This document shows, one piece after another, positions 4,545-57,706 of a stretch of 64,000 nucleotides of DNA (positions are counted from its first letter, which is position 1; the number at the start of each line of letters is the position of its first letter). The notes below the pieces were generated by a model. The model ran no database searches. It saw only the letters and a program-made list of their open reading frames with translations, and was not told the origin of the DNA. A program made the translations under genes and the position numbers. This stretch comes from Escherichia coli (GTDB taxonomy: Bacteria; Pseudomonadota; Gammaproteobacteria; Enterobacterales; Enterobacteriaceae): assembly GCF_003019035.1 (NCBI RefSeq), contig NZ_CP027447.1. The stretch is one strand, 5' to 3'.

Positions 4545-6082
<1,538 letters not shown>

Positions 6083-21422: not shown

Positions 21423-21450
21423 TTGCGTGTGGCCATTCCTTGATCAGACA

Positions 21451-29128: not shown

Positions 29129-30043
29129 TTATGCCTCCAGCCCGTTAATCTGTGGCGTCGGCTCAGTCAGCCATGAAGGCGCGACATCGCCTGTTGGCTC
29201 GTCCGGCAGGTCAAATGTGGAGCGCAGGCTACGCGCTGTGCTTTCCAGTTGACAGACCAGGCCTGCCATGAAGTCTCTGGGGGTATCAATCATGTTTTCA
29301 GCACAATATGCGCACAGCGTCTCAAAAGCGCTGGACAGTCGAACGGCGATAGCAGATTCCGCCTCAACCGCTAATGCTGTCACTTCCGCCCGCAGCTTCT
29401 TAACCTCTTCATCAGGCTCAGGCGGCTGAATACGGGATTTCTTCTCCAGTTTTGTGGAAAGCGAGTCGATTTTTTCGTTTTTGTCGGCCAGCACGCGCTG
29501 TTGTGCTGCGTTGGTTTCGCGGGCTTCGCGCAGGGCCTGACGCAATTCACGTACTGACATGCGATCAACGTCGTCAAGCGTCAGGCCGGCAACTGTGCCG
29601 CCGTCGGCCAATTCATCAAGTTCTTCATTATCCAGAACCATCAGGTCGTACAGTTTGGCTTTCCCCAAAACGCTCAACGTTGAGCGTTTTGTTGGCTCAT
29701 CACCTTCTCCCAAAAACTTCATACTGGCTTGCATCATGCGGCGAGCAACTTGTGGTGCAAGTCCGAGTTCATTTTCTAAAATGTTTGTAAAATCACCGTG
29801 TGGCTCATTTTCTTTTAAGATGATCAGCCGTTTACCCGCTTCCAGCATAGATTCAGCACTCTGCGCCATATAAAAACGTGCTTCGTGAACAATGCGATCA
29901 CGTTCATAAGGCAGTCCATCACCAAACTGCTGCATAATTTCCATGCGATGCTGTGTCATAGCGTTCAAATTGACATTGATGTTATCTGACAGCGGAACCT
30001 CAACATTCAGTTCAGTGTTAACGGGTGATTTGGTGCGTCCCAT
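29129..30043 (-). CDS. DUF3102-like coiled-coil early protein (304 aa)
   Basis: It is a conserved partner upstream of the transposase in Mu-like elements (from memory). It has a central coiled coil. Function unknown. Confidence 0.6.
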   Translation of the reverse strand: MGRTKSPVNTELNVEVPLSDNINVNLNAMTQHRMEIMQQFGDGLPYERDRIVHEARFYMAQSAESMLEAGKRLIILKENEPHGDFTNILENELGLAPQVARRMMQASMKFLGEGDEPTKRSTLSVLGKAKLYDLMVLDNEELDELADGGTVAGLTLDDVDRMSVRELRQALREARETNAAQQRVLADKNEKIDSLSTKLEKKSRIQPPEPDEEVKKLRAEVTALAVEAESAIAVRLSSAFETLCAYCAENMIDTPRDFMAGLVCQLESTARSLRSTFDLPDEPTGDVAPSWLTEPTPQINGLEA

Positions 30044-30053
30044 TGATTACTCC

Positions 30054-30362
30054 TTACAAACGACTACCTGAAATAACTCGTTGGTTGATTTCGTTAATAC
30101 GATCCTGTGCACGCGCCATCTCGTGACTGTGAGCCATGGCGATCTGTAGTAACTGGATTCCCGGTGCGAAACGTCCGTTCTCTAATTTCATGGCCAGTCC
30201 CTCTTCAATAAGGGTATTAAGTGCTCGATTGATATTCGCCGGGGACTCCCCCAGGGCTGATGCCAGTTCACCGTTAGAAACACCGTTCAGAGCATGACCG
30301 CGTAGAGCTTTGAGTACACGTAGGATGCGGCTCCCGGAACTGGAAATATTTACTTTACTCAT
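30054..30362 (-). CDS. winged-helix (IclR-N/MarR-like) DNA-binding protein
   Basis: SRILRVLKALRGHALNGVSNGELASALGESPANINRALNTLIEEGL. An alternative start at 30425 would overlap the end of the ner-like gene. Confidence 0.6.
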   Translation of the reverse strand: MSKVNISSSGSRILRVLKALRGHALNGVSNGELASALGESPANINRALNTLIEEGLAMKLENGRFAPGIQLLQIAMAHSHEMARAQDRINEINQRVISGSRL

Positions 30363-30382
30363 GTCACATTTCCATTTTTGCA

Positions 30383-30693
30383 ATATGTGATAACCTGTTG
30401 CATATGTGGAAAATTTATGCCGCATTTGACGTGGGTTTTAATCCCAGTTTTACGGCAATTTCATGGGCTTTGCCGTAACGAGCTTTGGTCTGTCCATTGA
30501 GAACACGATAGACCTCATTGCGGCTGTAGCCGTGTTCTTCGGCCCAGCGGGTAAACGTGATACCACGCTGACGGAAGAGATTTTTAACTTGTTCGGAAGT
30601 CATTGTTGTCTCCTTTGTTGATGCAATGATGTTTGTTTTATATGTGATAGATTATGTGAACTATTGTTCTCATTGTCAATGAGGTTTATGTGA
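30383..30693. promoter_or_regulatory. five copies of WTATGTGR (candidate repressor/Ner operators)
   Basis: ATATGTGA at 30383 and 30640, ATATGTGG at 30402, TTATGTGA at 30652 and 30686. All five read the same way on the + strand, and the last overlaps the repressor GTG start. Confidence 0.5.
30415..30603 (-). CDS. Ner/Cro-like small HTH regulator, first gene of the early operon
   Basis: 62 aa (ITFTRWAEEHGYSRNEVYRVLNGQTKARYGKAHEIAVKLGLK), divergent from the repressor gene. Confidence 0.7.
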   Translation of the reverse strand: MTSEQVKNLFRQRGITFTRWAEEHGYSRNEVYRVLNGQTKARYGKAHEIAVKLGLKPTSNAA

Positions 30694-31115
30694 ATTTTGA
30701 TTCTCTTTGCGCGTCGCGGTTCAAAGCTGAGCGTTCGCGGTTATCACTCAAGCAGGCTGAAGTAGCAGCCCTTTGTGGCGTTTCAAGAGAAATGTGGGGG
30801 AAATATGAACGAGGGGTTGCTGTTCCCGGAGGTGAGTTACTTGCAGCCTTTGCAAGAATTGGGGCCAATGTACAGTTCATTCTTACCGGGGAGTCATCAG
30901 GTATAACTTTATCACGTGATGAAATGGAGTTACTGCAGCACTACCGGCAAGCACCGTTACAGGTCAAAGGTTCAGTTTTGTCGGCTTTGACTACTGGCTC
31001 CTCCAGAGAACGGGCGGAACAGGTTATTCATGGAGATGTTCTGGGGAATGTTATCAAAGGTAACGTAACCATAGGAACAGGTGGAATAATGAACAAAAAT
31101 ACCAAGAGAAGATGA
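30690..31115 (+). CDS. XRE-family HTH protein, probable prophage repressor (c analogue)
   Basis: GTG start with GAGG upstream. HTH LSLKQAEVAALCGVSREMWGKYERG. Divergent from the early operon. The C-terminal tail is VIHGDVLGNVIKGNVTIGTGG. Confidence 0.75.
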   Translation: MNFDSLCASRFKAERSRLSLKQAEVAALCGVSREMWGKYERGVAVPGGELLAAFARIGANVQFILTGESSGITLSRDEMELLQHYRQAPLQVKGSVLSALTTGSSRERAEQVIHGDVLGNVIKGNVTIGTGGIMNKNTKRR

Positions 31116-32098
31116 GTAAAGAGAAGCAAACAGTTAACGGGGATGTGGGTAACGTTGTCAGCGGTGATGTTACCATTCATAACTATTCTGCTGACATACT
31201 TCCTTCTGCCCAGCAACCAATTTCGTTGCTGCAAAAACGCGATTTACACAGATTGATGGATGAATTGGTTGATCTGGGGGAAAGTAAGCGCGAGCTATGG
31301 ATGACGATCCACACGAAACTTAATACCAAAACAGTTAATGAAATGACTGCGGCTGATTATCATGGTGCGGTTGAGATCCTTCAGAGATATGCACAACAGA
31401 TCCAGAATATGAAGGACTGTAATCTTCTGGTCAGCAAAATAATGGCGCTTACTGACCCTGGGTATCGTCTTGACCGTGACAGATACTGTCTGAAGCATTT
31501 CGGTACAACCCATCTTAAAGGCCTGGACAAAGAGCAGTTGCAGGCTGTGTTTGGTTATTTTGATGATCTGCTGAATATTCGTGATGAGAGTAAAACTCTA
31601 TCACCTCCATCGGAAAGCGGTGCAAAATCAGTCGCAACTGTACCAACCAGAAGCCGGAAGCCTCATGTAGTAGTGTTGGGGGGAGCGTTAGTTCTTGTAG
31701 CAATATTTTTCGTGGGAATGATTGTGTTCGCTGGTAAATGGGGAAATGCTAAAGCAGTAGCTTCTACTGAAACCAGCGTTTTTAACATTAAAACCAACGA
31801 CAAAATAATAGAAGATTCCATCCCCGCACTGCGCAGCATGTTTCCAGGATTAAATAAGTACTCAGATGATTTCCATTCGGTTTCAAGCTACAAGCAAAAA
31901 ACGGGCTGGCATACCCTTAAATTTACTGTATCAGCAAAGGCATCCGTCCCCGAAAATTATAGTGTTAAGGGCAAGGTTTGTTACATTAACATAAACCCTG
32001 ATGGTAGTTATGCTCGGGTTTTGACTGCTCCATGTCGTTCACTGCTACTTGATCAGCAAAGCACTCCTGACAGTAAGTACCGTTTTATTCTTAAATAG
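31112..32098 (+). CDS. orphan 328-aa single-pass membrane protein coupled to the repressor gene
   Basis: ATGA overlap with the repressor stop. The N-terminus is VNGDVGNVVSGDVTIHNY, the TM segment is HVVVLGGALVLVAIFFVGMIVFAG, and about 110 aa follow it. The coding DNA is AT-rich. Confidence 0.7.
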   Translation: MSKEKQTVNGDVGNVVSGDVTIHNYSADILPSAQQPISLLQKRDLHRLMDELVDLGESKRELWMTIHTKLNTKTVNEMTAADYHGAVEILQRYAQQIQNMKDCNLLVSKIMALTDPGYRLDRDRYCLKHFGTTHLKGLDKEQLQAVFGYFDDLLNIRDESKTLSPPSESGAKSVATVPTRSRKPHVVVLGGALVLVAIFFVGMIVFAGKWGNAKAVASTETSVFNIKTNDKIIEDSIPALRSMFPGLNKYSDDFHSVSSYKQKTGWHTLKFTVSAKASVPENYSVKGKVCYININPDGSYARVLTAPCRSLLLDQQSTPDSKYRFILK

Positions 32099-32182
32099 AA
32101 AATAACAGCTGAATTACCATGGGAGCAGAAAAAAGACAAAGGCGATATCATGCTGCGTTCTAAAATTTTAATGTAAAAGGTG

Positions 32183-32290
32183 ATGAACATGGCAGGGATT
32201 CAGGTTATCGCAGGAAGTTTTCCTAAAGGGTGGGCAAGCATGGGGTTCGGTACCATCGTGTTTGCCACCAATCCATGGAACGATGGGTAA
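32183..32290 (+). CDS. possible 35-aa peptide ORF (weak call)
   Basis: MNMAGIQVIAGSFPKGWASMGFGTIVFATNPWNDG, with AAGG close upstream. It lies inside the region between the 328-aa gene and the terminator. Confidence 0.2.
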   Translation: MNMAGIQVIAGSFPKGWASMGFGTIVFATNPWNDG

Positions 32291-32338
32291 TGTCTGCATT
32301 TTCATAATCTGTAAGCCTTTTACAATTATTAAAAATAT

Positions 32339-32448
32339 GGCAGGCTAGTCTGGTCTCGCGAGACTGACTGAACCTCGGTCGGCTCACAGTGCATTCCTGT
32401 GGGACGATGGCCAGCCCGGCTTTCGGGTGCCGGGCTGGTCGTTCTTTC
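32339..32448 (+). ncRNA. candidate structured RNA / 3' UTR element ending in a terminator
   Basis: It contains the 12-nt palindrome GTCTCGCGAGAC, the hairpin CACAG-TGCATTC-CTGTG and a long terminal stem. No ORF on the + strand spans this stretch. The 5' end is a guess. Confidence 0.3.
32411..32448 (+). terminator. rho-independent terminator closing the repressor-side transcription unit
   Basis: CCAGCCCGG-CTTTCGGGTG-CCGGGCTGG followed by TCGTTCTTTC. The stem can be extended by GACGA/TCGTT. Confidence 0.6.
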
Positions 32449-32494
32449 ATGATGCGGCAGGGATAGTGGGATTTCTGTTAATGTGGTTTAGGGA

Positions 32495-32710
32495 TTATCC
32501 GGGGTGATTGTCTGCCTTTATCTGGTCCAGGGCATAAGTGATCCCTTCAGCAAAAACAGAAGTATCGAACTGCTTTTGTATTTCCTGAAAATGAACAGTG
32601 GCACGACAGATACTCAGTTCTCCGCGATGTAACCGGATAATATCTTCCAGAACATTGTTCACTGCTTCGGCACGGCGCTGATGTTCTGTTAACGTTAATC
32701 GGGGATTCAT
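32495..32710 (-). CDS. orphan 71-aa protein
   Basis: Strong SD (TAAGGAG, 6-nt spacer). Its ATG shares 2 nt with the ATG of the divergent 134-aa ORF. Confidence 0.55.
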   Translation of the reverse strand: MNPRLTLTEHQRRAEAVNNVLEDIIRLHRGELSICRATVHFQEIQKQFDTSVFAEGITYALDQIKADNHPG

Positions 32711-33113
32711 GATGCACTCCTTAAATGATGATTTTTATGTACTCACCGGCAAAATATTCTGCCGATTACTGAACACGCATCCGGCACCTCAGGTTTTGAT
32801 TTATTCTGGTTTTTTCGATATCCCGGACCAGGTTGATCACGACCAGAAAAAGTGCCGGTATTTTATTGATACGCTGATATGGCTTCGGGATAACAGCTAT
32901 ATTCGTTACTCTCAGTTGCTGGCTGTGGGAGCGGCTGATGTCGTCCTCACGGAAAAAACGCTCTGTCTGCTCAATGCCATGCCGACCTTTCTGCAGCCCC
33001 GGCCCGTACCATTTAAAGAGTTGCTTCTGGATGCAGTAAAAACCGGCGAAAATGCAGTCATCGCTGAATGCGTATCCCGGATTATGCGTTACGTGTTTAA
33101 TGAACGTAAGTGA
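32709..33113 (+). CDS. orphan 134-aa protein, possibly winged-helix-like
   Basis: Coding-like codon pattern with GGGGA upstream. The segment IDTLIWLRDNSYIRYSQ...VVLTEKTLCLLN loosely resembles a wHTH recognition helix and wing. That reading is an inference. Confidence 0.55.
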   Translation: MMHSLNDDFYVLTGKIFCRLLNTHPAPQVLIYSGFFDIPDQVDHDQKKCRYFIDTLIWLRDNSYIRYSQLLAVGAADVVLTEKTLCLLNAMPTFLQPRPVPFKELLLDAVKTGENAVIAECVSRIMRYVFNERK

Positions 33114-33832
33114 GGTTTATCTGCTGTCTGCATAATCCCGATAGCCAGTGCGAGGGGAAGTAATTCCGGGGAAACTCTTTCAAACAGCGATGCCCATTCT
33201 CCTCTCGCCATCACTCTGTCCAGCCCGCCCCCCAGCTGCATTTCAGCAATCTTCCTGATTTCCCGGAACAACGCCGCTTTGATCTCTTCATGCTCAGCTT
33301 TATTTTCCGGTGTCAGAATGTATTCGTCGAAGAACCGGGGAGGCTGGTTAACGGGGATTGTGTTTACCGGGATGTGTTCCTGTTTCCCGTACTTCGGGGA
33401 CGAACAACATTCTGTTGGCTGACCGGTGAGTTTACGTAACTCCTTCATGAGCAGCTCCTGATCGTAAACTGTCATCAGTGCCGCAATGGTGGCATGCAGT
33501 GCATCGGGCAGTATCCAGGGTTGCCGGCCCGTGGGGCATATAACATCCAGTAGCTCATTCGTCCGACAGATACGCTCCTCTCCGTATGACAACAGGCCCT
33601 GTCCCGTGTATTCCTCCAGCCTGATCACTGTGCCAGCCCGTGGCTTCTGCCAGGTCGTCAGATCATCGCCACTCATACGGCGCTCATTCTCCACGTCAGC
33701 AGCATCGACAATGACGCTGTTTCCGAGTTCCTGTTTCACCACTTCCTCTATCCGCGCCAGTACGTAACTTTTACCGCTGCCCACAGGACCGGACACGGTG
33801 ACAGTGATGACCGGATTCAGTGTATGTGTCAT
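33089..33832 (-). CDS. orphan 247-aa P-loop protein
   Basis: Walker A VSGPVGSGKSYVL at residues 13-25 and a possible Walker B SVIVDAAD. SD GAGGAG. Divergent from the lysis genes, and its 3' end overlaps the 134-aa ORF by 25 nt. Confidence 0.7.
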   Translation of the reverse strand: MTHTLNPVITVTVSGPVGSGKSYVLARIEEVVKQELGNSVIVDAADVENERRMSGDDLTTWQKPRAGTVIRLEEYTGQGLLSYGEERICRTNELLDVICPTGRQPWILPDALHATIAALMTVYDQELLMKELRKLTGQPTECCSSPKYGKQEHIPVNTIPVNQPPRFFDEYILTPENKAEHEEIKAALFREIRKIAEMQLGGGLDRVMARGEWASLFERVSPELLPLALAIGIMQTADKPHLRSLNT

Positions 33833-33904
33833 GTTGCATTCTCCTCTGTGAATAATTCATCGTTTATCCTGCACATCCCGTATCCCCGGCTCTCTTAACG
33901 CGCT

Positions 33905-33943
33905 TTAAAATCCTTCGCGCCCTGTATTTGTGATGCTGTCTCC
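33905..33943 (+). promoter_or_regulatory. late-promoter-like bipartite motif, copy 1 (upstream of the lysis genes)
   Basis: TTAAAATC at 33905 and CTGTCTCC at 33936, with 31-nt start-to-start spacing. TAAAAT is -10-like, no -35 is evident, and a C-tract lies upstream. Confidence 0.4.
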
Positions 33944-33962
33944 ACCAGACAAGGAGACACAC

Positions 33963-34313
33963 ATGAAAAACCTGAAAAAATTCATTCCCCCTGTTAAAAA
34001 ACCTCGCCTCAGCGGCTGGCTGCTGACCTCAGTGCTGTTGCTGGGCACCATCGCTCTGGTCTCGCCACAGCAGCTGCCTGTTGTGATCTACAAGCTGGCA
34101 CTCATCACGCTGGCAGCAGTGCTGGGTTACTGGCTTGACCGTTCACTCTTCCCCAAAGCCCGTCCCGGTCAGTACCTGAAACATGAAGACAGGCTGATGG
34201 CTGAAGGGCGTTTCCCTGTGCAGACCGGCCTTCACCTTGTATTTTCTGCTGCGTTAATCCGCCGTGCACTGATTGTTGCAGCGGTCTGTCTGGCTGTGGC
34301 AACAGGACTGTGA
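33963..34313 (+). CDS. putative holin (116 aa, 3 TM)
   Basis: SD AAGGAG. MKNLKKF... has three hydrophobic segments. It is the first gene of the lysis cassette, so the call is by position and topology. Confidence 0.6.
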   Translation: MKNLKKFIPPVKKPRLSGWLLTSVLLLGTIALVSPQQLPVVIYKLALITLAAVLGYWLDRSLFPKARPGQYLKHEDRLMAEGRFPVQTGLHLVFSAALIRRALIVAAVCLAVATGL

Positions 34314-34315
34314 CC

Positions 34316-35038
34316 ATGAACTGGCCTCAAATCACCCTCATTATTCTGTTCGCCTTTGGTCTGGGCGTAACCGCCATCAGACACGGAGAACCACGTAACG
34401 ATAAATACAGCTTCTGGTGGCAGCTTGCTGGCAACCTGGTGATTGTCTGGCTGCTCTGGTGTGGCGGCTTCTTCAGTCAGGCCCGCGCAGCGCAGCCTCC
34501 GCAGGCTGCGCTGCAGTATCGCGATGATGTGATCCGTAATGCCCGGCTTGAATGGGGACTGTCTGCGCCGGTGGCCGATTTCGCTGCGCAACTGCATCAG
34601 GAAAGCGGCTGGCGACCTGATGCGGTCTCGCCGGCTGGCGCTCAGGGACTGGCGCAGTTCATGCCCGCCACTGCTGACTGGATAAGTCAGCTGATGCCGG
34701 GGCTTAACAGCCGTGAGCCGTTTAATCCGGCATGGGCCATCCGGGCGCTGGTCAGCTATGACCGCTGGCTGTGGCAGCGCGTCAGCGCCGCCAGTGACTG
34801 CGAACGTATGGCCATGACACTGTCGGGCTATAACGGTGGTCTGGGCTGGGTACAACGGGACAGGCAGCTAGCATCACAGAAAGGCCTGGACAGTACCCGC
34901 TGGTTCGGGCATGTCGCCACGGTGAATGCCGGACGCAATGCTGCCAGCTGGCGGGAGAACCGCCATTATCCGCAGCGCATCCTGCACGAACTGGCCCCCC
35001 GTTATCTGACATGGGGGGGCGGCAGCTGTGTGGACTAA
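34316..35038 (+). CDS. membrane-anchored lytic transglycosylase (endolysin, SLT domain)
   Basis: SLT motif LHQESGWRPDAVSPAGAQGLAQFMP, preceded by two hydrophobic helices. Confidence 0.8.
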   Translation: MNWPQITLIILFAFGLGVTAIRHGEPRNDKYSFWWQLAGNLVIVWLLWCGGFFSQARAAQPPQAALQYRDDVIRNARLEWGLSAPVADFAAQLHQESGWRPDAVSPAGAQGLAQFMPATADWISQLMPGLNSREPFNPAWAIRALVSYDRWLWQRVSAASDCERMAMTLSGYNGGLGWVQRDRQLASQKGLDSTRWFGHVATVNAGRNAASWRENRHYPQRILHELAPRYLTWGGGSCVD

Positions 35039-35681: not shown

Positions 35682-36004
35682 CACTGCAGGTTGAATTCTG
35701 GACGGTGGTGAGTTTTCTGCTCACCTTCATGGGGTTTGTTGGAGGGCTCGCCAAATGGTTGTTCAGTAAAACAGAAGAACGCCAGGCGGCACGATTCGCC
35801 TCCCTTGAACAGGCCCTGCAACAGTCCGCCTCCAACTGGGGCGAGCTGGAAAAGGAATTTATGCGATTTAAAGCGGATTTACCGCTGAATTATGTCCGTC
35901 GCGAGGATTATATCCGTGGCCAGACAGTCATCGAGGCCAAACTGGACGCACTTTACAACAAACTGGAAGTGGTACAGCAGTACCGCAATACCGGAGGTCA
36001 ATAA
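35678..36004 (+). CDS. small membrane protein (108 aa; Mu gp25/DUF2730-like by position)
   Basis: One N-terminal TM followed by a coiled coil. ATGA overlap with the Rz-like gene. Confidence 0.5.
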   Translation: MTLQVEFWTVVSFLLTFMGFVGGLAKWLFSKTEERQAARFASLEQALQQSASNWGELEKEFMRFKADLPLNYVRREDYIRGQTVIEAKLDALYNKLEVVQQYRNTGGQ

Positions 36005-36315
36005 TGGTCGATATTACCCGGGTACGCCGCGAATCCCTGCGCTGGAGTCTGCTGGTTGCCCTGAACAAAACCCGCCCTTACACCGCCAGCGAAACGTTGC
36101 TGCTGGACGTGTCCCGTGCCATCTACCCGGACACCACGCAACTGGAGCTGCGCCGGGAGCTTGATTATCTGGCAGATCGCAAAATGGTGGAGCTGGAGAA
36201 GAGACCGTCCGGTGACTGGTTTGCCGATCTGAGTCGCCTTGGTGTGGATATTGTGGAATACACCGTGGAATGCGGCCCGGGTATTGCCCGCCCGGAAAAA
36301 TACTGGAGTGAGTGA
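36004..36315 (+). CDS. hypothetical protein (103 aa)
   Basis: Its start overlaps the upstream stop (TAATG). No motif was recognised. Confidence 0.5.
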   Translation: MVDITRVRRESLRWSLLVALNKTRPYTASETLLLDVSRAIYPDTTQLELRRELDYLADRKMVELEKRPSGDWFADLSRLGVDIVEYTVECGPGIARPEKYWSE

Positions 36316-41026: not shown

Positions 41027-41089
41027 AACCGCTTCCGGTTCACCGCATTGCTTTCCCTGTCCTTCTCCCCTGATGTTTTCTAAAGCAGA

Positions 41090-41128
41090 TTAAAATCGCC
41101 GGGCCTGCATTTCTCACAAACTGTCTCC
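41090..41128 (+). promoter_or_regulatory. late-promoter-like bipartite motif, copy 2 (upstream of the protease/scaffold gene)
   Basis: TTAAAATC at 41090 and CTGTCTCC at 41121, with the same 31-nt spacing as copy 1. Confidence 0.4.
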
Positions 41129-41152: not shown

Positions 41153-42268
41153 ATGTCAGCCATTCACATTTTTAAAGCCGGTACTCATACCGATATGCAC
41201 GGCAAAAAACTGCCGTTCACGCCAGACGATCTTGCCGCCTGCGTGAAAGCCTATGACCCGTCCGTCCATGAAGCACCACTCGTGATTGGTCATCCCAGAA
41301 CGGAAGACCCGGCGTGGGGCTGGGTGAAAGCCCTGTCGCTCAGCGGCGTCGATCTGATGGCAGAGCCTGCCCAGCTGGACCCGCAGTTTGCTGAGATGGT
41401 CACCGACGGACGATTCAAAAAAGTGTCCGCCTCTTTCTACCTCCCGGATTCACCGTCCAATCCGAAGCCCGGCGTGCTCTACCTGCGCCATGTGGGCTTT
41501 CTCGGGGCACAGCCACCTTCCGTCAAGGGGCTGAAACAGGTGTCCTTCAGTGAGCAGGAAGAAGGTGTGGTGGAGTTCGCCGACTGGCAGGCCATCACGA
41601 ATGCCTCCCTGTGGGGAAAGCTGCGCGATTTTCTGATCGCCCGCTTCAGTCTGGACGAGGCAGAAAAAGTCCTGCCGGAATGGCAGCTCAACAGTCTGCG
41701 CGAAGAGGCGTACCGCGACACACTGTCGCAGGATGCAGCAGGTGCCCAATTCAGTGAGACAGGCCCGGGGCCGTCTTCCGCAAGTAACGAGGAATCATCG
41801 ATGACAAAAGAAGAGATTGAAGCCCTTCAGGAGGAGAACCGCCGCCTGAAGCAGCAGGCTGCTGATCGCGATGCGCGTGATGCACAGGTCAGACAGGAGC
41901 AACTGCATAAGGACAATGTGGCCTTTGCAGAAAAACTGGTCGCAGAGGGCCGTCTGGCTCCCCGCGCCTCCTCCGTGGTGGTTGCCCTGCTGGATGCCGT
42001 CGCCGGTGGCGACAAGCCGGTGGAGTTTGCTGAGGGGGAAAGCCGCACACCGCTGGCCACCGCCTTTCGTTCATTGCTCTCCGACGGGGAGCCGGTGATG
42101 AATTTCGCCGAACAGGCCACAAAAGAGCGTGTCGGCGACACGGTGAAGGTGGATGTGGCGGAGTTTGCGGAAGCCGATCCTGAGCGTCTGGCCCTGCATC
42201 AGAAAGCAGTGGCCCTGTCCAAAAAAGAAGGCATCAGCTATGAGGCTGCTGTCGCACGCTGCCTGTAA
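41153..42268 (+). CDS. head protease/scaffold protein (Mu gpI-like)
   Basis: The N-terminal HIFKAGTHTDMHGKKLPFTPDDL...VIGHPRTEDPAWGWV pattern is followed by an Ala/Glu-rich coiled-coil C-terminal half. It lies immediately before the capsid gene. Confidence 0.7.
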   Translation: MSAIHIFKAGTHTDMHGKKLPFTPDDLAACVKAYDPSVHEAPLVIGHPRTEDPAWGWVKALSLSGVDLMAEPAQLDPQFAEMVTDGRFKKVSASFYLPDSPSNPKPGVLYLRHVGFLGAQPPSVKGLKQVSFSEQEEGVVEFADWQAITNASLWGKLRDFLIARFSLDEAEKVLPEWQLNSLREEAYRDTLSQDAAGAQFSETGPGPSSASNEESSMTKEEIEALQEENRRLKQQAADRDARDAQVRQEQLHKDNVAFAEKLVAEGRLAPRASSVVVALLDAVAGGDKPVEFAEGESRTPLATAFRSLLSDGEPVMNFAEQATKERVGDTVKVDVAEFAEADPERLALHQKAVALSKKEGISYEAAVARCL

Positions 42269-57664: not shown

Positions 57665-57706
57665 AAATAGGTACGTTTATCGCGCGGCGCATCAATTCCT
57701 TTGTAA

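What the first reader, a model, noticed from the sequence alone, without database searches (positions are those of the whole stretch)
30690..33832. Unassignable accessory island between the prophage repressor and the lysis genes: best candidate for an undescribed system
Every other block of the prophage maps onto a recognisable Mu or P2 function. The 3.1 kb between the XRE repressor start and the lysis late promoter does not. It holds a 328-aa single-pass membrane protein coupled to the repressor, about 350 nt of structured non-coding DNA ending in a terminator, and three ORFs on alternating strands (71 aa, 134 aa, 247-aa P-loop). None carries a motif I can place in a known phage or defence family beyond a Walker A. 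Part of it is compositionally foreign. Hand counts give 23 G+C in 60 nt at 31741..31800, against 35 in 60 at 36001..36060 in the late region. Immunity-adjacent positions expressed in the lysogen are where temperate phages typically carry exclusion or defence cargo (lambda rexAB, P22 sieB). That positional argument is an inference.
Basis: partly seen in the sequence, partly recalled or inferred. Interest (0 to 1): 0.85.

Follow-up and report, generated by a model that had tools for sequence, protein, structure and literature searches.

The report
Prophage repressor with motif-matched membrane partner
The 3.1-kb "island" is not one hidden defence system but a recombination-scarred junction of two standard units of a Mu-like E. 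coli prophage; its interesting part is that the phage repressor's tail and the start of the membrane protein encoded next to it carry the same short motif, which changes in step across many related phages and so probably links the two proteins.

Summary
All ORFs, the ATGA overlap, the single membrane helix, the Walker A, the hairpin and the GC counts are as described. The prophage (window 21442-57694) is a BcepMu-like transposable phage of E. coli, and the interval is a mosaic.

(A) Immunity operon: an XRE repressor (BcepMu gp17 homologue) plus p328. p328 fuses a gp18/Flk-like cytoplasmic domain, a membrane anchor and a periplasmic domain that is a separate lipoprotein in relatives.

(B) A deletion scar: the first ~28 codons of a membrane-protein gene joined head-on to the first 15 codons of a Dam methylase gene, followed by the Dam leader hairpin.

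(C) The head of a leftward operon (p247, then p71, then Dam in 474 E. coli genomes) with p134 embedded antisense. It starts beside a conserved palindrome that it shares with the lysis promoter. I infer it is a late operon, not lysogen cargo.

No protein matches a known defence family.

New finding: the repressor's C-terminal tail and the partner's N-terminus share a ~19-aa G/N/Q/V-rich motif. The two copies co-occur (53/7/3/44 loci, p 9e-19) and co-vary (0 of 10,000 permutations). This is the genomic signature of amyloid-signalling pairs, seen here on a repressor. Binding between the two proteins is inferred, not shown.

The parts
30604..30709 (.). Divergent immunity control region. It holds an early-promoter-like site on the minus strand (30679..30651, TTGACA-17-CATAAT) and two 24-nt operator-like direct repeats (30652-30675, 30686-30709).
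   Evidence: position between the Ner-like gene (30415-30603, -) and the XRE gene
30690..31115 (+). XRE-family prophage repressor (141 aa), a homologue of BcepMu gp17.
   Evidence: Pfam HTH_31/HTH_3; 39% identity to BcepMu gp17, tail included; gp17 is annotated as cro/cI repressor
31020..31073 (+). C-terminal tail motif of the repressor (residues 111-128, QVIHGDVLGNVIKGNVTI), followed by a basic end (NKNTKRR).
31112..32098 (+). p328, translationally coupled to the repressor. It comprises the N-terminal motif, a Flk/gp18-like helical domain (31199-31585), a membrane helix (31667-31735) and a periplasmic alpha+beta domain (31772-32095).
   Evidence: NCBIfam Flk 3.5e-12; phrog_10002/5825/6521; AF2 model with two confident domains; BLASTP to E. 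coli Flk 1e-5; the C-domain is homologous to lipoproteins of relatives
31127..31177 (+). N-terminal motif of p328 (residues 6-22, QTVNGDVGNVVSGDVTI) matching the repressor tail. It is nearly invariant in the p328 family and disordered in the monomer model.
   Evidence: (score 55, z 8.2)
32189..32275 (+). Remnant of the first ~28 codons of a 193-aa two-TM membrane-protein gene that is intact in most E. coli relatives.
32261..32305 (-). Remnant of the first 15 codons (MKMQTLPIVPWIGGK) of the phage Dam (D12-class) methylase gene. The rest is deleted.
32405..32450 (+). 15-bp GC-rich hairpin plus T-run. On the + strand it looks like a terminator. On the - strand it is the leader between p71 and Dam. 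It lies within a ~190-bp segment (32260-32450) conserved in all relatives.
32495..32710 (-). p71 (phrog_4490), the small gene directly upstream of Dam in relatives.
32709..33113 (+). p134 (phrog_2266), embedded antisense between p247 and p71. Its start overlaps the p71 start by 2 nt and its end overlaps the p247 end by 25 nt.
33089..33832 (-). p247 (phrog_3787). It has a conserved 75-aa N-terminal Walker-A module (33605-33832; Walker A 33767-33790), a poorly modelled middle, and a C-terminal domain (about 33092-33325) that is a separate 89-aa protein in Serratia relatives.
33892..33962 (+). Conserved late (lysis) promoter region with the palindrome TTAACGCGCTTTAA (33895-33908). The holin probably starts at ATG 33963, not GTG 33930.
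   Evidence: alignment of 19 relatives; second copy at 41077-41097; the holin profile match starts at residue 12

Best explanation
The interval is the junction of two conserved transcription units of an E. coli BcepMu-like transposable prophage. They were joined by recombination and a deletion. It is not a single accessory system.

Unit 1 (rightward, lysogenic) is the immunity operon, made of the XRE repressor and p328. The repressor ends in a ~19-residue G/N/Q/V-rich motif, and p328 begins with the same motif. I propose that the two segments pair with each other by beta-strand pairing, possibly by amyloid-like templating. On this view p328 is a membrane-anchored modulator of the repressor. 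It could act as a sensor or anti-repressor, or as an anchor that couples envelope state to the lysis-lysogeny switch. p328 is built from a gp18/Flk-like cytoplasmic domain, a membrane anchor and a periplasmic domain. In relatives the periplasmic domain is a separate lipoprotein encoded just downstream, and it may also act in exclusion.

The gap is a scar. It holds the starts of a membrane-protein gene and of the Dam methylase gene fused head-on, followed by the Dam leader hairpin.

Unit 2 (leftward) is the head of the phage's Dam operon: p247, then p71, then Dam in relatives. p134 is embedded antisense. The operon starts next to a palindromic site shared with the lysis promoter, so it is probably a late operon, analogous to Mu's mom operon. 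Here it has lost its methylase.

Shown: the homologies, the breakpoints, and the co-occurrence and co-variation of the motif. Inferred: physical binding of the two proteins, the direction of control, the late timing of unit 2, and any biochemical role of p247, p71 and p134.
For: Context:
- BcepMu-like gene order, and a gp17 homologue at 39% identity.
- The prophage is bounded at 21442 and 57694 in E. coli.

Unit 1:
- p328's N-half hits Flk (3.5e-12). It also hits phrog_5825 and phrog_6521, the families of the 193-aa tail-anchored partners and of BcepMu gp18.
- In Dickeya and Pectobacterium relatives the tail-anchored partner and the lipoprotein are adjacent separate genes.
- Cognate tail/N-terminus alignments have z 3-14 in 7 lineages of genome loci.
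- Among 79 IMG/VR pairs, 56 have z>=4. In the 25 non-redundant pairs the cognate mean is 53.4 against 29.6 for non-cognate pairs, and 0 of 10,000 permutations reach the observed sum.
- A motif HMM co-occurs in both proteins in 53 loci, in only one in 10, and in neither in 44 (Fisher p 9e-19).
- Only 45% of identical residues use the same codon, so the match is kept at protein level.
- The motif is the most conserved part of p328 and is disordered in the monomer model.

Scar:
- blastn breakpoints at 32260-32275 and translations of both remnants.

Unit 2:
- The block is present in 474 of 5426 E. coli genomes, normally followed by an intact Dam.
- The same position and order (holin <-|-> Walker-A-module protein -> Dam) is seen in another lineage.
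- In four relatives Dam itself sits next to the palindrome.
- The palindrome is conserved in 19 relatives and recurs upstream of a late gene block at 41077.
- No good sigma-70 promoter is found for p247 or p134.
Against: - No direct evidence exists that the two motifs bind each other. Co-variation could reflect shared recognition by a third factor or common descent in linked genes, and the loci are phylogenetically related.
- The motif HMM was trained on some of the sequences it scored.
- In 25 non-redundant pairs the cognate is the single best match in only 8 rows and 10 columns, because several lineages share one motif class.
- Photorhabdus-type repressors lack the tail although the next protein keeps a motif-like segment.
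- BLASTP between p328 and gp18 is not significant on its own. The link rests on profile matches.
- Late timing of unit 2 rests on position only. The distances of candidate -10 elements from the palindrome are not symmetric (my reading).
- p247's fold could not be modelled beyond residue 76.
Confidence: 0.5

Rival explanations
1. The island, or part of it, is defence or superinfection-exclusion cargo expressed in the lysogen. Either the periplasmic domain of p328 blocks entry of incoming phage DNA, as prophage lipoproteins such as T5 Llp or phi80 Cor do (from memory), or p71/p134/p247 form an undescribed defence system.
For: - The interval is a variable, GC-poor hotspot.
- The periplasmic domain occurs in 20 of 53 relatives directly after the repressor. 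It is often a stand-alone lipoprotein and is found regardless of repressor type.
- Other cassettes at this site look like cargo. These include a 2TM protein weakly similar to a CBASS effector (7.5e-5) and an NA37 + membrane-protein pair.
- The C-termini of the p247 family are highly mosaic, as in arms-race proteins.
Against: - No PADLOC, Pfam or NCBIfam defence match for any of the five proteins.
- p71/p134/p247 are backbone in 474 E. coli prophages and lie in the Dam operon beside the late promoter.
- p134 can be deleted while p71 and p247 remain intact (L001).
- Here the operon has lost its methylase, so it may be decaying.
Confidence: 0.2
2. The matched motif is an amyloid-signalling pair of the Bab/Agp abortive-infection type. 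One protein senses infection and templates the other, and the membrane protein p328 is the cell-killing effector rather than a regulator of lysogeny.
For: - The motif sits at the C-terminus of one product and the N-terminus of the adjacent product.
- Its composition resembles BASS motifs: N 2.8x, G 2.2x, Q 1.9x, V 1.7x, L 0.11x, P 0.22x.
- Bab/Agp lies in E. coli prophage hotspots.
- The partners are membrane proteins.
Against: - The C-terminal-motif protein is the phage's own repressor, not a Bell/HeLo-type pore former.
- No NLR/STAND, TPR or nuclease sensor is present.
- The pair is conserved as the immunity module of a whole phage group, which fits switch control better than Abi.
- Fibril formation is untested.
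Confidence: 0.07
3. The shared motif does not mediate repressor-partner binding. It is a common tag read by a third party such as a protease, chaperone or membrane-targeting factor. Alternatively it is a self-association tag that each protein uses separately.
For: - A general consensus (about F-[HN]-G-x-V-G-Q-V-x-x-G-x-I-x-N) runs through most variants, so a conserved reader is conceivable.
- The repressor tail ends in a conserved basic stretch that could be a degron or a lipid- or DNA-binding tail.
- The C-terminal tail of the Mu repressor controls its ClpXP degradation (from memory).
Against: - Lineage-specific co-variation, for example NRVAGRDY in both proteins, ENIYNI/NNIYNI, and GQNIYGNI/GQNVFGNI. 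This is not expected if a conserved host factor reads both.
- Strict co-occurrence in the two adjacent genes.
Confidence: 0.15
4. p71/p134, with or without p247, form a toxin-antitoxin-like or addiction cassette that stabilises the prophage.
For: - The genes are small and tightly overlapping on opposite strands.
- The arrangement is conserved in E. coli and Serratia.
Against: - p134 is deleted in strain CUVET21-PYO5 while p71 and p247 stay intact.
- Photorhabdus relatives carry the p134 family without detectable p71 or p247 homologues.
- No TA family match in Pfam, NCBIfam or PADLOC.
Confidence: 0.04

Closest known systems
BcepMu gp17/gp18 (repressor and the gene coupled to it) in Bcepmuvirus
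   Same: - Same position and orientation between the Ner-like early operon and the lysis genes.
- The repressor is 39% identical.
- The second gene overlaps the repressor stop (ATGA) and encodes an N-terminal motif, a cytoplasmic domain of the same PHROG families, and one membrane helix.
- gp17 and gp18 also share the motif (VGQAVKVEGN / VGQAIQAGEAN).
   Different: - p328 carries an extra ~110-aa periplasmic domain absent from gp18.
- Pairwise BLASTP of p328 against gp18 is not significant.
- No function for gp18 turned up in the papers I searched.
Amyloid-signalling motif pairs: bacterial BASS families and Bab/Agp (BASS11) of E. coli prophage hotspots (10.1101/2020.01.06.895854; 10.1101/2024.11.07.622273)
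   Same: - A short motif at the C-terminus of one protein and the N-terminus of the product of the adjacent gene.
- G/N/Q/V-rich and L/P/K-poor composition.
- Cognate specificity.
- Prophage location.
   Different: - The carriers are a DNA-binding repressor and a Flk-like membrane protein, not a Bell/HeLo effector and an NLR/TPR sensor.
- The motif is ~19 aa rather than ~25.
- No sequence comparison with BASS profiles was possible.
- Fibril formation is untested.
Lambda cI-rexA-rexB (10.1101/2021.04.19.439022)
   Same: - Genes co-transcribed with the repressor in the lysogen.
- RexA binds CI and biases the lysis-lysogeny switch.
- RexB is a membrane protein that modulates it.
- The same genes also act in exclusion.
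   Different: - No sequence or domain similarity.
- No matched terminal motif in lambda.
- One protein here instead of two.
Flk (Fluke/RflH) of Salmonella and E. coli (PMC13344023)
   Same: - Homologous ~125-aa helical domain (NCBIfam 3.5e-12, BLASTP 1e-5, 25% identity).
- Cytoplasmic domain held at the inner membrane by a C-terminal anchor.
- Acts as a lock on a regulatory switch that decides the fate of a transcription regulator, FlgM.
   Different: - Flk has two tandem domains, a P/G/Q-rich N-terminus instead of the motif, and no periplasmic domain.
- It is chromosomal and flagellar.
- p328 scores 46 bits against a family cut-off of 353, so it is not a Flk equivalog.
Mu com-mom late operon (from memory)
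   Same: - A DNA-modification gene at the end of a late operon driven by a C/Mor-type activator.
- It is preceded by a small gene and a leader hairpin.
   Different: - The modification enzyme is a Dam-type methylase, and it is deleted in this prophage.
- p71 has one cysteine and no Com-like zinc finger.
- Late timing is inferred only from promoter position.

Membership tests
BcepMu-like (Bcepmuvirus) transposable prophage immunity region | XRE repressor homologous to gp17, divergent from a Ner-like / IclR-HTH / DUF3102 / transposase early operon | tested here: met
   PhiKM is classified as Bcepmuvirus
BcepMu-like (Bcepmuvirus) transposable prophage immunity region | Second gene of the gp18 family coupled to the repressor | tested here: met
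   p328 hits phrog_5825 (3e-28) and phrog_6521 (1.4e-5). gp18 hits phrog_6521 (1.7e-76) and phrog_5825 (1.7e-8). Pairwise BLASTP alone is not significant.
BcepMu-like (Bcepmuvirus) transposable prophage immunity region | Insertion by transposition into a host site, with a short target duplication | tested here: met
   The host sequence is continuous in strain TCM3e1 across 21441/57695, with a 7-nt overlap.
Flk (NF007987 equivalog) | Whole-protein score above the curated cut-off; two tandem Flk domains; C-terminal tail anchor with nothing beyond it | tested here: not met
   46 bits against a cut-off of 353. p328 has one domain, and its membrane helix is followed by a 120-aa periplasmic domain. 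Homology of the domain itself is supported.
P-loop NTPase (p247) | Walker A GxxxxGK[ST] | tested here: met
   GPVGSGKS at residues 15-22. G20 and K21 are invariant in 34 family members, though some have GKN.
P-loop NTPase (p247) | Walker B and a central parallel beta-sheet fold; membership of a curated ATPase family | tested here: inconclusive
   A candidate hhhhEE (VIRLEE, residues 69-74) is seen by eye. The AF2 model is confident for residues 4-76 but shows no DSSP strands. Foldseek finds no PDB match. The best Pfam hit is AAA_30 at 17 bits against a cut-off of 27. The RefSeq names 'ABC transporter ATPase' and 'KAP family NTPase' sit on truncated copies.
Amyloid-signalling motif pair (BASS / HET-s type) | Same short motif at the C-terminus of one product and the N-terminus of the adjacent gene's product | tested here: met
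Amyloid-signalling motif pair (BASS / HET-s type) | About 25 aa, enriched in G/N/Q/V/I, depleted in K/P/L | tested here: met
   Mean aligned length is 19 aa. Composition: N 2.8x, G 2.2x, Q 1.9x, V 1.7x, L 0.11x, P 0.22x, K 0.63x. The motif is somewhat shorter than BASS.
Amyloid-signalling motif pair (BASS / HET-s type) | Carried by an NLR/STAND-type sensor and a Bell/HeLo-type membrane-targeting effector | tested here: not met
   The carriers are an XRE HTH protein and a Flk-like membrane protein.
Amyloid-signalling motif pair (BASS / HET-s type) | The motif forms cross-beta fibrils and templates its partner | not testable with these tools
   Needs peptides, ThT/EM, and GFP-foci assays.
Known anti-phage defence systems (PADLOC-DB 2.0) | Significant match of any component to a defence-system model | tested here: not met
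   The best hits are E 5.6e-5 (the HTH only, to RmrA) and E >0.01 for the others.
Dam (D12-class N6-adenine methylase) | Intact catalytic protein of ~255 aa | tested here: not met
   Only the first 15 codons remain at 32305-32261. Dam is intact in 34 of 53 relatives and in strain R9.
DUF2513 (name given by a source to a Serratia homologue of p134) | Pfam PF10711 match | tested here: not met
   No Pfam hit at E<=0.05-0.1 for p134, P0055 or the Photorhabdus homologue.
Toxin-antitoxin pair (p71/p134) | Obligate co-occurrence of the two genes; match to a TA family | tested here: not met
   p134 is deleted while p71 is intact in L001. The p134 family occurs alone in Photorhabdus. No TA family match.

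The most novel reading that the evidence does not exclude
The repressor tail and the partner N-terminus form a prion-like (amyloid-templating) or beta-zipper switch. Through it a membrane-anchored Flk-like sensor captures or polymerises the prophage repressor. This would give BcepMu-like transposable phages an SOS-independent, envelope-coupled and possibly irreversible route from lysogeny to lytic growth. Chromosomal Flk would then be a domesticated relative of this phage module.
Probability: 0.18. Interest if true: 0.85.

Novelty: new variant of a known kind. Interest (0 to 1): 0.6.

Why it matters
How Mu-like and BcepMu-like prophages leave lysogeny without a LexA-type cleavable repressor is poorly understood. 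A repressor whose tail matches the start of a co-transcribed membrane protein, with the match kept and co-varying in at least 25 non-redundant lineages, points to a concrete and cheaply testable control link between the cell envelope and the genetic switch.

If the motif behaves like the amyloid-signalling motifs recently shown to work in an E. coli prophage-borne Abi system, amyloid templating would extend from cell-death effectors to a transcription factor.

The work also corrects the map of a locus present in about 10% of complete E. coli genomes:
- "ABC transporter ATPase" and "KAP family NTPase" are truncated copies of one phage protein.
- The "non-coding" gap is a scar.
- p247 and p71 belong to a Dam operon.

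Tried and rejected
- Pfam, NCBIfam, PHROGs and PADLOC on all proteins gave only HTH, Flk-like and unknown-function PHROG matches.
- PDB sequence searches on p328, p247, p134 and p71 found nothing significant.
- Foldseek against PDB found nothing for either model.
- The afdb50 fold library was unavailable.
- Rfam found no RNA family in 30000-34500. The simple terminator scan missed the 32405 hairpin, which folding confirmed.
- The word-index homologue searches for p247 and p134 returned only close relatives. The exhaustive search showed that only the 75-aa N-module of p247 is widespread.
- A search with the p328 alignment in IMG/VR found only close relatives. The repressor alignment was needed to reach diversity.
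- The DUF2513 label for p134 could not be reproduced.
- The TA idea for p71/p134 was rejected on gene-content grounds.
- A Com-like role for p71 was rejected as homology, because it has no zinc-finger cysteines. It is kept only as a positional analogy.
- DNA-level homogenisation of the two motif copies was rejected: only 115 of 255 identical residues share a codon.
- Literature searches found no paper on DUF2513, on gp18 function, or on a repressor with an amyloid-type motif.

Full report
CONTEXT. The window carries a 36.25-kb prophage at 21442-57694, inserted between ascB and hycI of an E. coli chromosome. Strain TCM3e1 is continuous across the two junctions, with a 7-nt overlap. Gene order and homology place the prophage with BcepMu-like transposable phages. 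Leftward lie a Ner-like gene, an IclR-type HTH gene, a DUF3102 gene and the transposase. Rightward lie the holin, an SLT endolysin, Rz-like genes and Mu-type terminase and portal genes. The closest phage record, Escherichia phage PhiKM, is classified as Bcepmuvirus. BcepMu itself has the same layout.

OBSERVATION. The five ORFs are at the stated coordinates. The repressor stop and the p328 start overlap as ATGA. p328 has one hydrophobic helix. p247 carries GPVGSGKS. The GC hand counts are exact, and the island is 47.0% GC against 55.9% in the late arm. The 396-nt gap ends in a 15-bp GC hairpin followed by UUCUUUC (-39.9 kcal/mol, z -4.8). It matches no Rfam family.

THE LOCUS IS A HOTSPOT BUT NOT ONE UNIT. 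Of 5426 complete E. coli genomes, 635 match part of the island and only one matches >=80% of it.
- The repressor-p328 block is in 126 genomes.
- The p71-p134-p247 block is in 474 genomes.
- Annotated relatives show alternative content between p328 and the holin. Options are a 193-aa two-TM protein plus a 158-aa truncated p247, a 182-aa 2TM protein plus a 128-aa truncated p247, or Dam + p71 + p134 + p247.
- In 53 related prophages from other Enterobacterales and beta-proteobacteria, the repressor-holin distance is 0.9-5.2 kb and the content varies widely. The repressor is always present, and a minus-strand Dam methylase is present in 34 of the 53.
- Cargo seen in relatives includes an NA37 + 393-aa membrane-protein pair, a DUF2441 protein, and a 2TM protein of the BcepMu gp19 family with a weak match to a CBASS 2TM effector.

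THE GAP IS A SCAR.
- blastn shows that the window is AR_0015-like up to 32275 and PhiKM-like from 32260 onward.
- 32189-32275(+) encodes MAGIQVIAGSFPKGWASMGFGTIVFA, the start of the 193-aa gene.
- 32305-32261(-) encodes MKMQTLPIVPWIGGK, the start of Dam. Compare KP12 Dam, MKEQSLPIVPWIGGKRRL.
- A deletion therefore removed most of both convergent genes.
- The ~190-bp segment 32260-32450, hairpin included, is conserved in all relatives. There it is the Dam 5' end and leader.
- The same scar is shared by strains A24 and CUVET21-PYO5, so it predates later exchanges.

UNIT 1, REPRESSOR AND P328.
- The repressor is 39% identical to BcepMu gp17, tail included. Operator-like 24-nt repeats and a strong leftward promoter lie just upstream.
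- Residues 19-147 of p328 match the Flk model (3.5e-12, far below the equivalog cut-off). Residues 28-152 align with E. coli K-12 Flk (25% identity, E 1e-5).
- p328 and gp18 share PHROG families 5825 and 6521.
- The C-terminal domain is homologous to lipoproteins (LSGC lipobox) encoded right after the repressor in many relatives.
- In Dickeya and Pectobacterium a 193-aa tail-anchored Flk-like protein and a 312-318-aa lipoprotein are adjacent genes. p328 is therefore a fusion of the two, and it is conserved from E. coli to Serratia and Yersinia.

THE MATCHED MOTIF. The repressor ends ...QVIHGDVLGNVIKGNVTIGTGGIMNKNTKRR, and p328 begins MSKEKQTVNGDVGNVVSGDVTIHNY. The same relation holds in other lineages, each with a different sequence:
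- Dickeya: QVFNGDITGQVAGNQIIN / QEFNGTASGQFSARDIIN.
- Pectobacterium: FTVSGNNNRVAGRDY / FNINGDSNRVAGRDY.
- Verminephrobacter: HSQHSSGHGAIHIGGVG / QHQSSGSGTVHVGQVSG.
- BcepMu: VGQAVKVEGN / VGQAIQAGEAN.

Using the repressor alignment I fetched 80 IMG/VR loci.
- 56 of 79 pairs score z>=4 against shuffles, and at least ten motif variants are present.
- In 25 non-redundant pairs the cognate mean is 53.4 against 29.6 for non-cognate pairs, and no permutation of 10,000 reaches the observed sum.
- Only 115 of 255 identical residues use the same codon.
- A motif HMM is present in both proteins in 53 non-redundant loci, in one only in 10, and in neither in 44 (Fisher p 9e-19). The HMM was trained on a subset of these sequences, and the loci are related.
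- Composition is N 2.8x, G 2.2x, Q 1.9x, V 1.7x, L 0.11x, P 0.22x. This is the bias reported for bacterial amyloid-signalling sequences.
- The motif is the most conserved stretch of the p328 family.
- The partners differ downstream. Some have a Flk-like domain, one has a Cys-rich 117-aa protein, and one a 146-aa soluble protein. Most are membrane-anchored.

UNIT 2, P247 / P134 / P71.
- In the common E. coli arrangement the order is repressor -> | <- Dam <- p71 | p134 -> | <- p247 | holin ->. The same triad occurs in Serratia, where an 89-aa protein homologous to p247 residues 181-233 replaces p247.
- p247 is modular. The N-terminal 75 aa (Walker A; G20 and K21 invariant) occur in about 50 representative clusters with mosaic C-termini. 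In another lineage such a protein sits directly between the holin promoter and Dam.
- Only residues 4-76 model confidently, with no PDB fold match. It is therefore a Walker-A module, not a demonstrated ATPase.
- The "ABC transporter ATPase" and "KAP family NTPase" of RefSeq are 3'-truncated copies of p247.
- p134 has a 54%-identical Serratia homologue although the DNA barely aligns, so it is a real gene. It is deleted in one strain that keeps p71 and p247. It occurs alone in Photorhabdus.
- Upstream of the holin, 19 relatives share CT(C/A)TTAA(C/A)GCnnTTTAAAATCC, which contains the palindrome TTAANGCGCNTTAA (33895-33908), followed by ATGCTGTCTCC. A second copy lies at 41077-41097 before a late gene block (2 matches against 0.09 expected).
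- In four relatives the Dam leader hairpin lies about 45 nt to the left of this site.
- I infer that the leftward operon is activator-dependent and late, like Mu's mom operon (from memory). I could not test this.

MECHANISM. Most likely (0.5 overall): the interval consists of two backbone units plus a scar, and the repressor and p328 interact through the matched motif. The structural statements are well supported. Binding is an inference from co-occurrence and co-variation. The direction of control is a guess: capture or inactivation of the repressor, stabilisation, or tethering. Lambda RexA, which binds CI and biases the switch and is modulated by the membrane protein RexB, is a functional precedent. 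Bab/Agp shows that matched terminal motifs in adjacent E. coli prophage genes can signal by amyloid templating. The rivals are defence or exclusion cargo (0.2), a tag read by a third party (0.15), Bab/Agp-type abortive infection (0.07), and a TA-like cassette (0.04).

NOVELTY AND VERDICT. As a "hidden defence system" the finding does not hold. It is a mosaic of known kinds of phage units, partly degraded. The matched, co-varying repressor/partner motif was not described in anything I could find. It is general to a large group of Mu-like phages. I rate the finding a new variant of a known kind, with interest 0.6.

Noticed in passing
window 21435-21441 and 57695-57701: Prophage ends. The host sequence (ascB ... 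hycI region) is continuous in E. coli TCM3e1 with a 7-nt overlap at the two junctions, consistent with insertion by transposition. The prophage is 36,253 bp long.
   Followed up: partly
window 41077-41097: Second copy (3 mismatches) of the conserved element found upstream of the holin (CTCTTAACGCGCTTTAAAATC, 33892-33912). It lies ~55 nt before the ORF starting at 41153 and is probably another late promoter with the same activator site.
   Followed up: partly
window 30641-30709: TTATGTGA-containing 24-nt direct repeats (30652-30675, 30686-30709) and a near-consensus leftward promoter (30679..30651). These are candidate operators and the early promoter of the immunity switch. One repeat overlaps the repressor start codon.
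   Followed up: no
window 33930-33963: The mechanical holin ORF starts at GTG 33930. However, the profile match, the Shine-Dalgarno AAGGAGAC and conservation in relatives all point to ATG 33963 (116 aa).
   Followed up: partly
L011 3789-6004, L058 4674-6865, L060 3799-5990: A two-gene cassette inserted at the same hotspot in Mixta, Pectobacterium and Brenneria prophages. It comprises an NA37/YejK-like nucleoid-associated protein (Pfam 9e-86) and a 393-408-aa protein with C-terminal membrane helices. It has no PADLOC match and could be an undescribed cargo system.
   Followed up: no
L002 5340-5888, L012 6313-6861, L005 10552-11199 (BcepMu gp19): A 182-215-aa two-TM protein family at the hotspot with a weak match (7.5e-5) to a PADLOC CBASS-type 2TM effector model. 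It stands alone, without a cyclase.
   Followed up: no
L004 (PhiKM, PQ738613.1) 4904-5305: The p134 ORF is intact (98.5% identical) but not annotated in the PhiKM GenBank record. RefSeq annotates it in E. coli strain R9.
   Followed up: yes
L034 (Halobellus sp. Atlit-31R, QPLR01000374.1, 521 bp): A 521-bp contig of a haloarchaeal assembly encodes 95%- and 92%-identical fragments of this enterobacterial phage's holin and endolysin. This is most likely contamination of that assembly.
   Followed up: no
L008 4153-5698: An IS21-like istA/istB pair is inserted in the same repressor-holin interval of an Apirhabdus prophage. This is further evidence that the interval tolerates insertions.
   Followed up: no
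L186 3951-4946 (E. coli K-12 flk): Chromosomal Flk consists of two tandem copies of the domain found once in the phage partners, plus a tail anchor. Its N-terminus is P/G/Q-rich instead of carrying the motif. Flk may be related by descent to the phage gp18-like family.
   Followed up: partly
L124 (IMG/VR) downstream of the repressor match: In one viral contig a tail-motif repressor is followed by a second XRE repressor gene rather than by a motif-bearing partner. It is one of ten discordant loci in the co-occurrence table.
   Followed up: no
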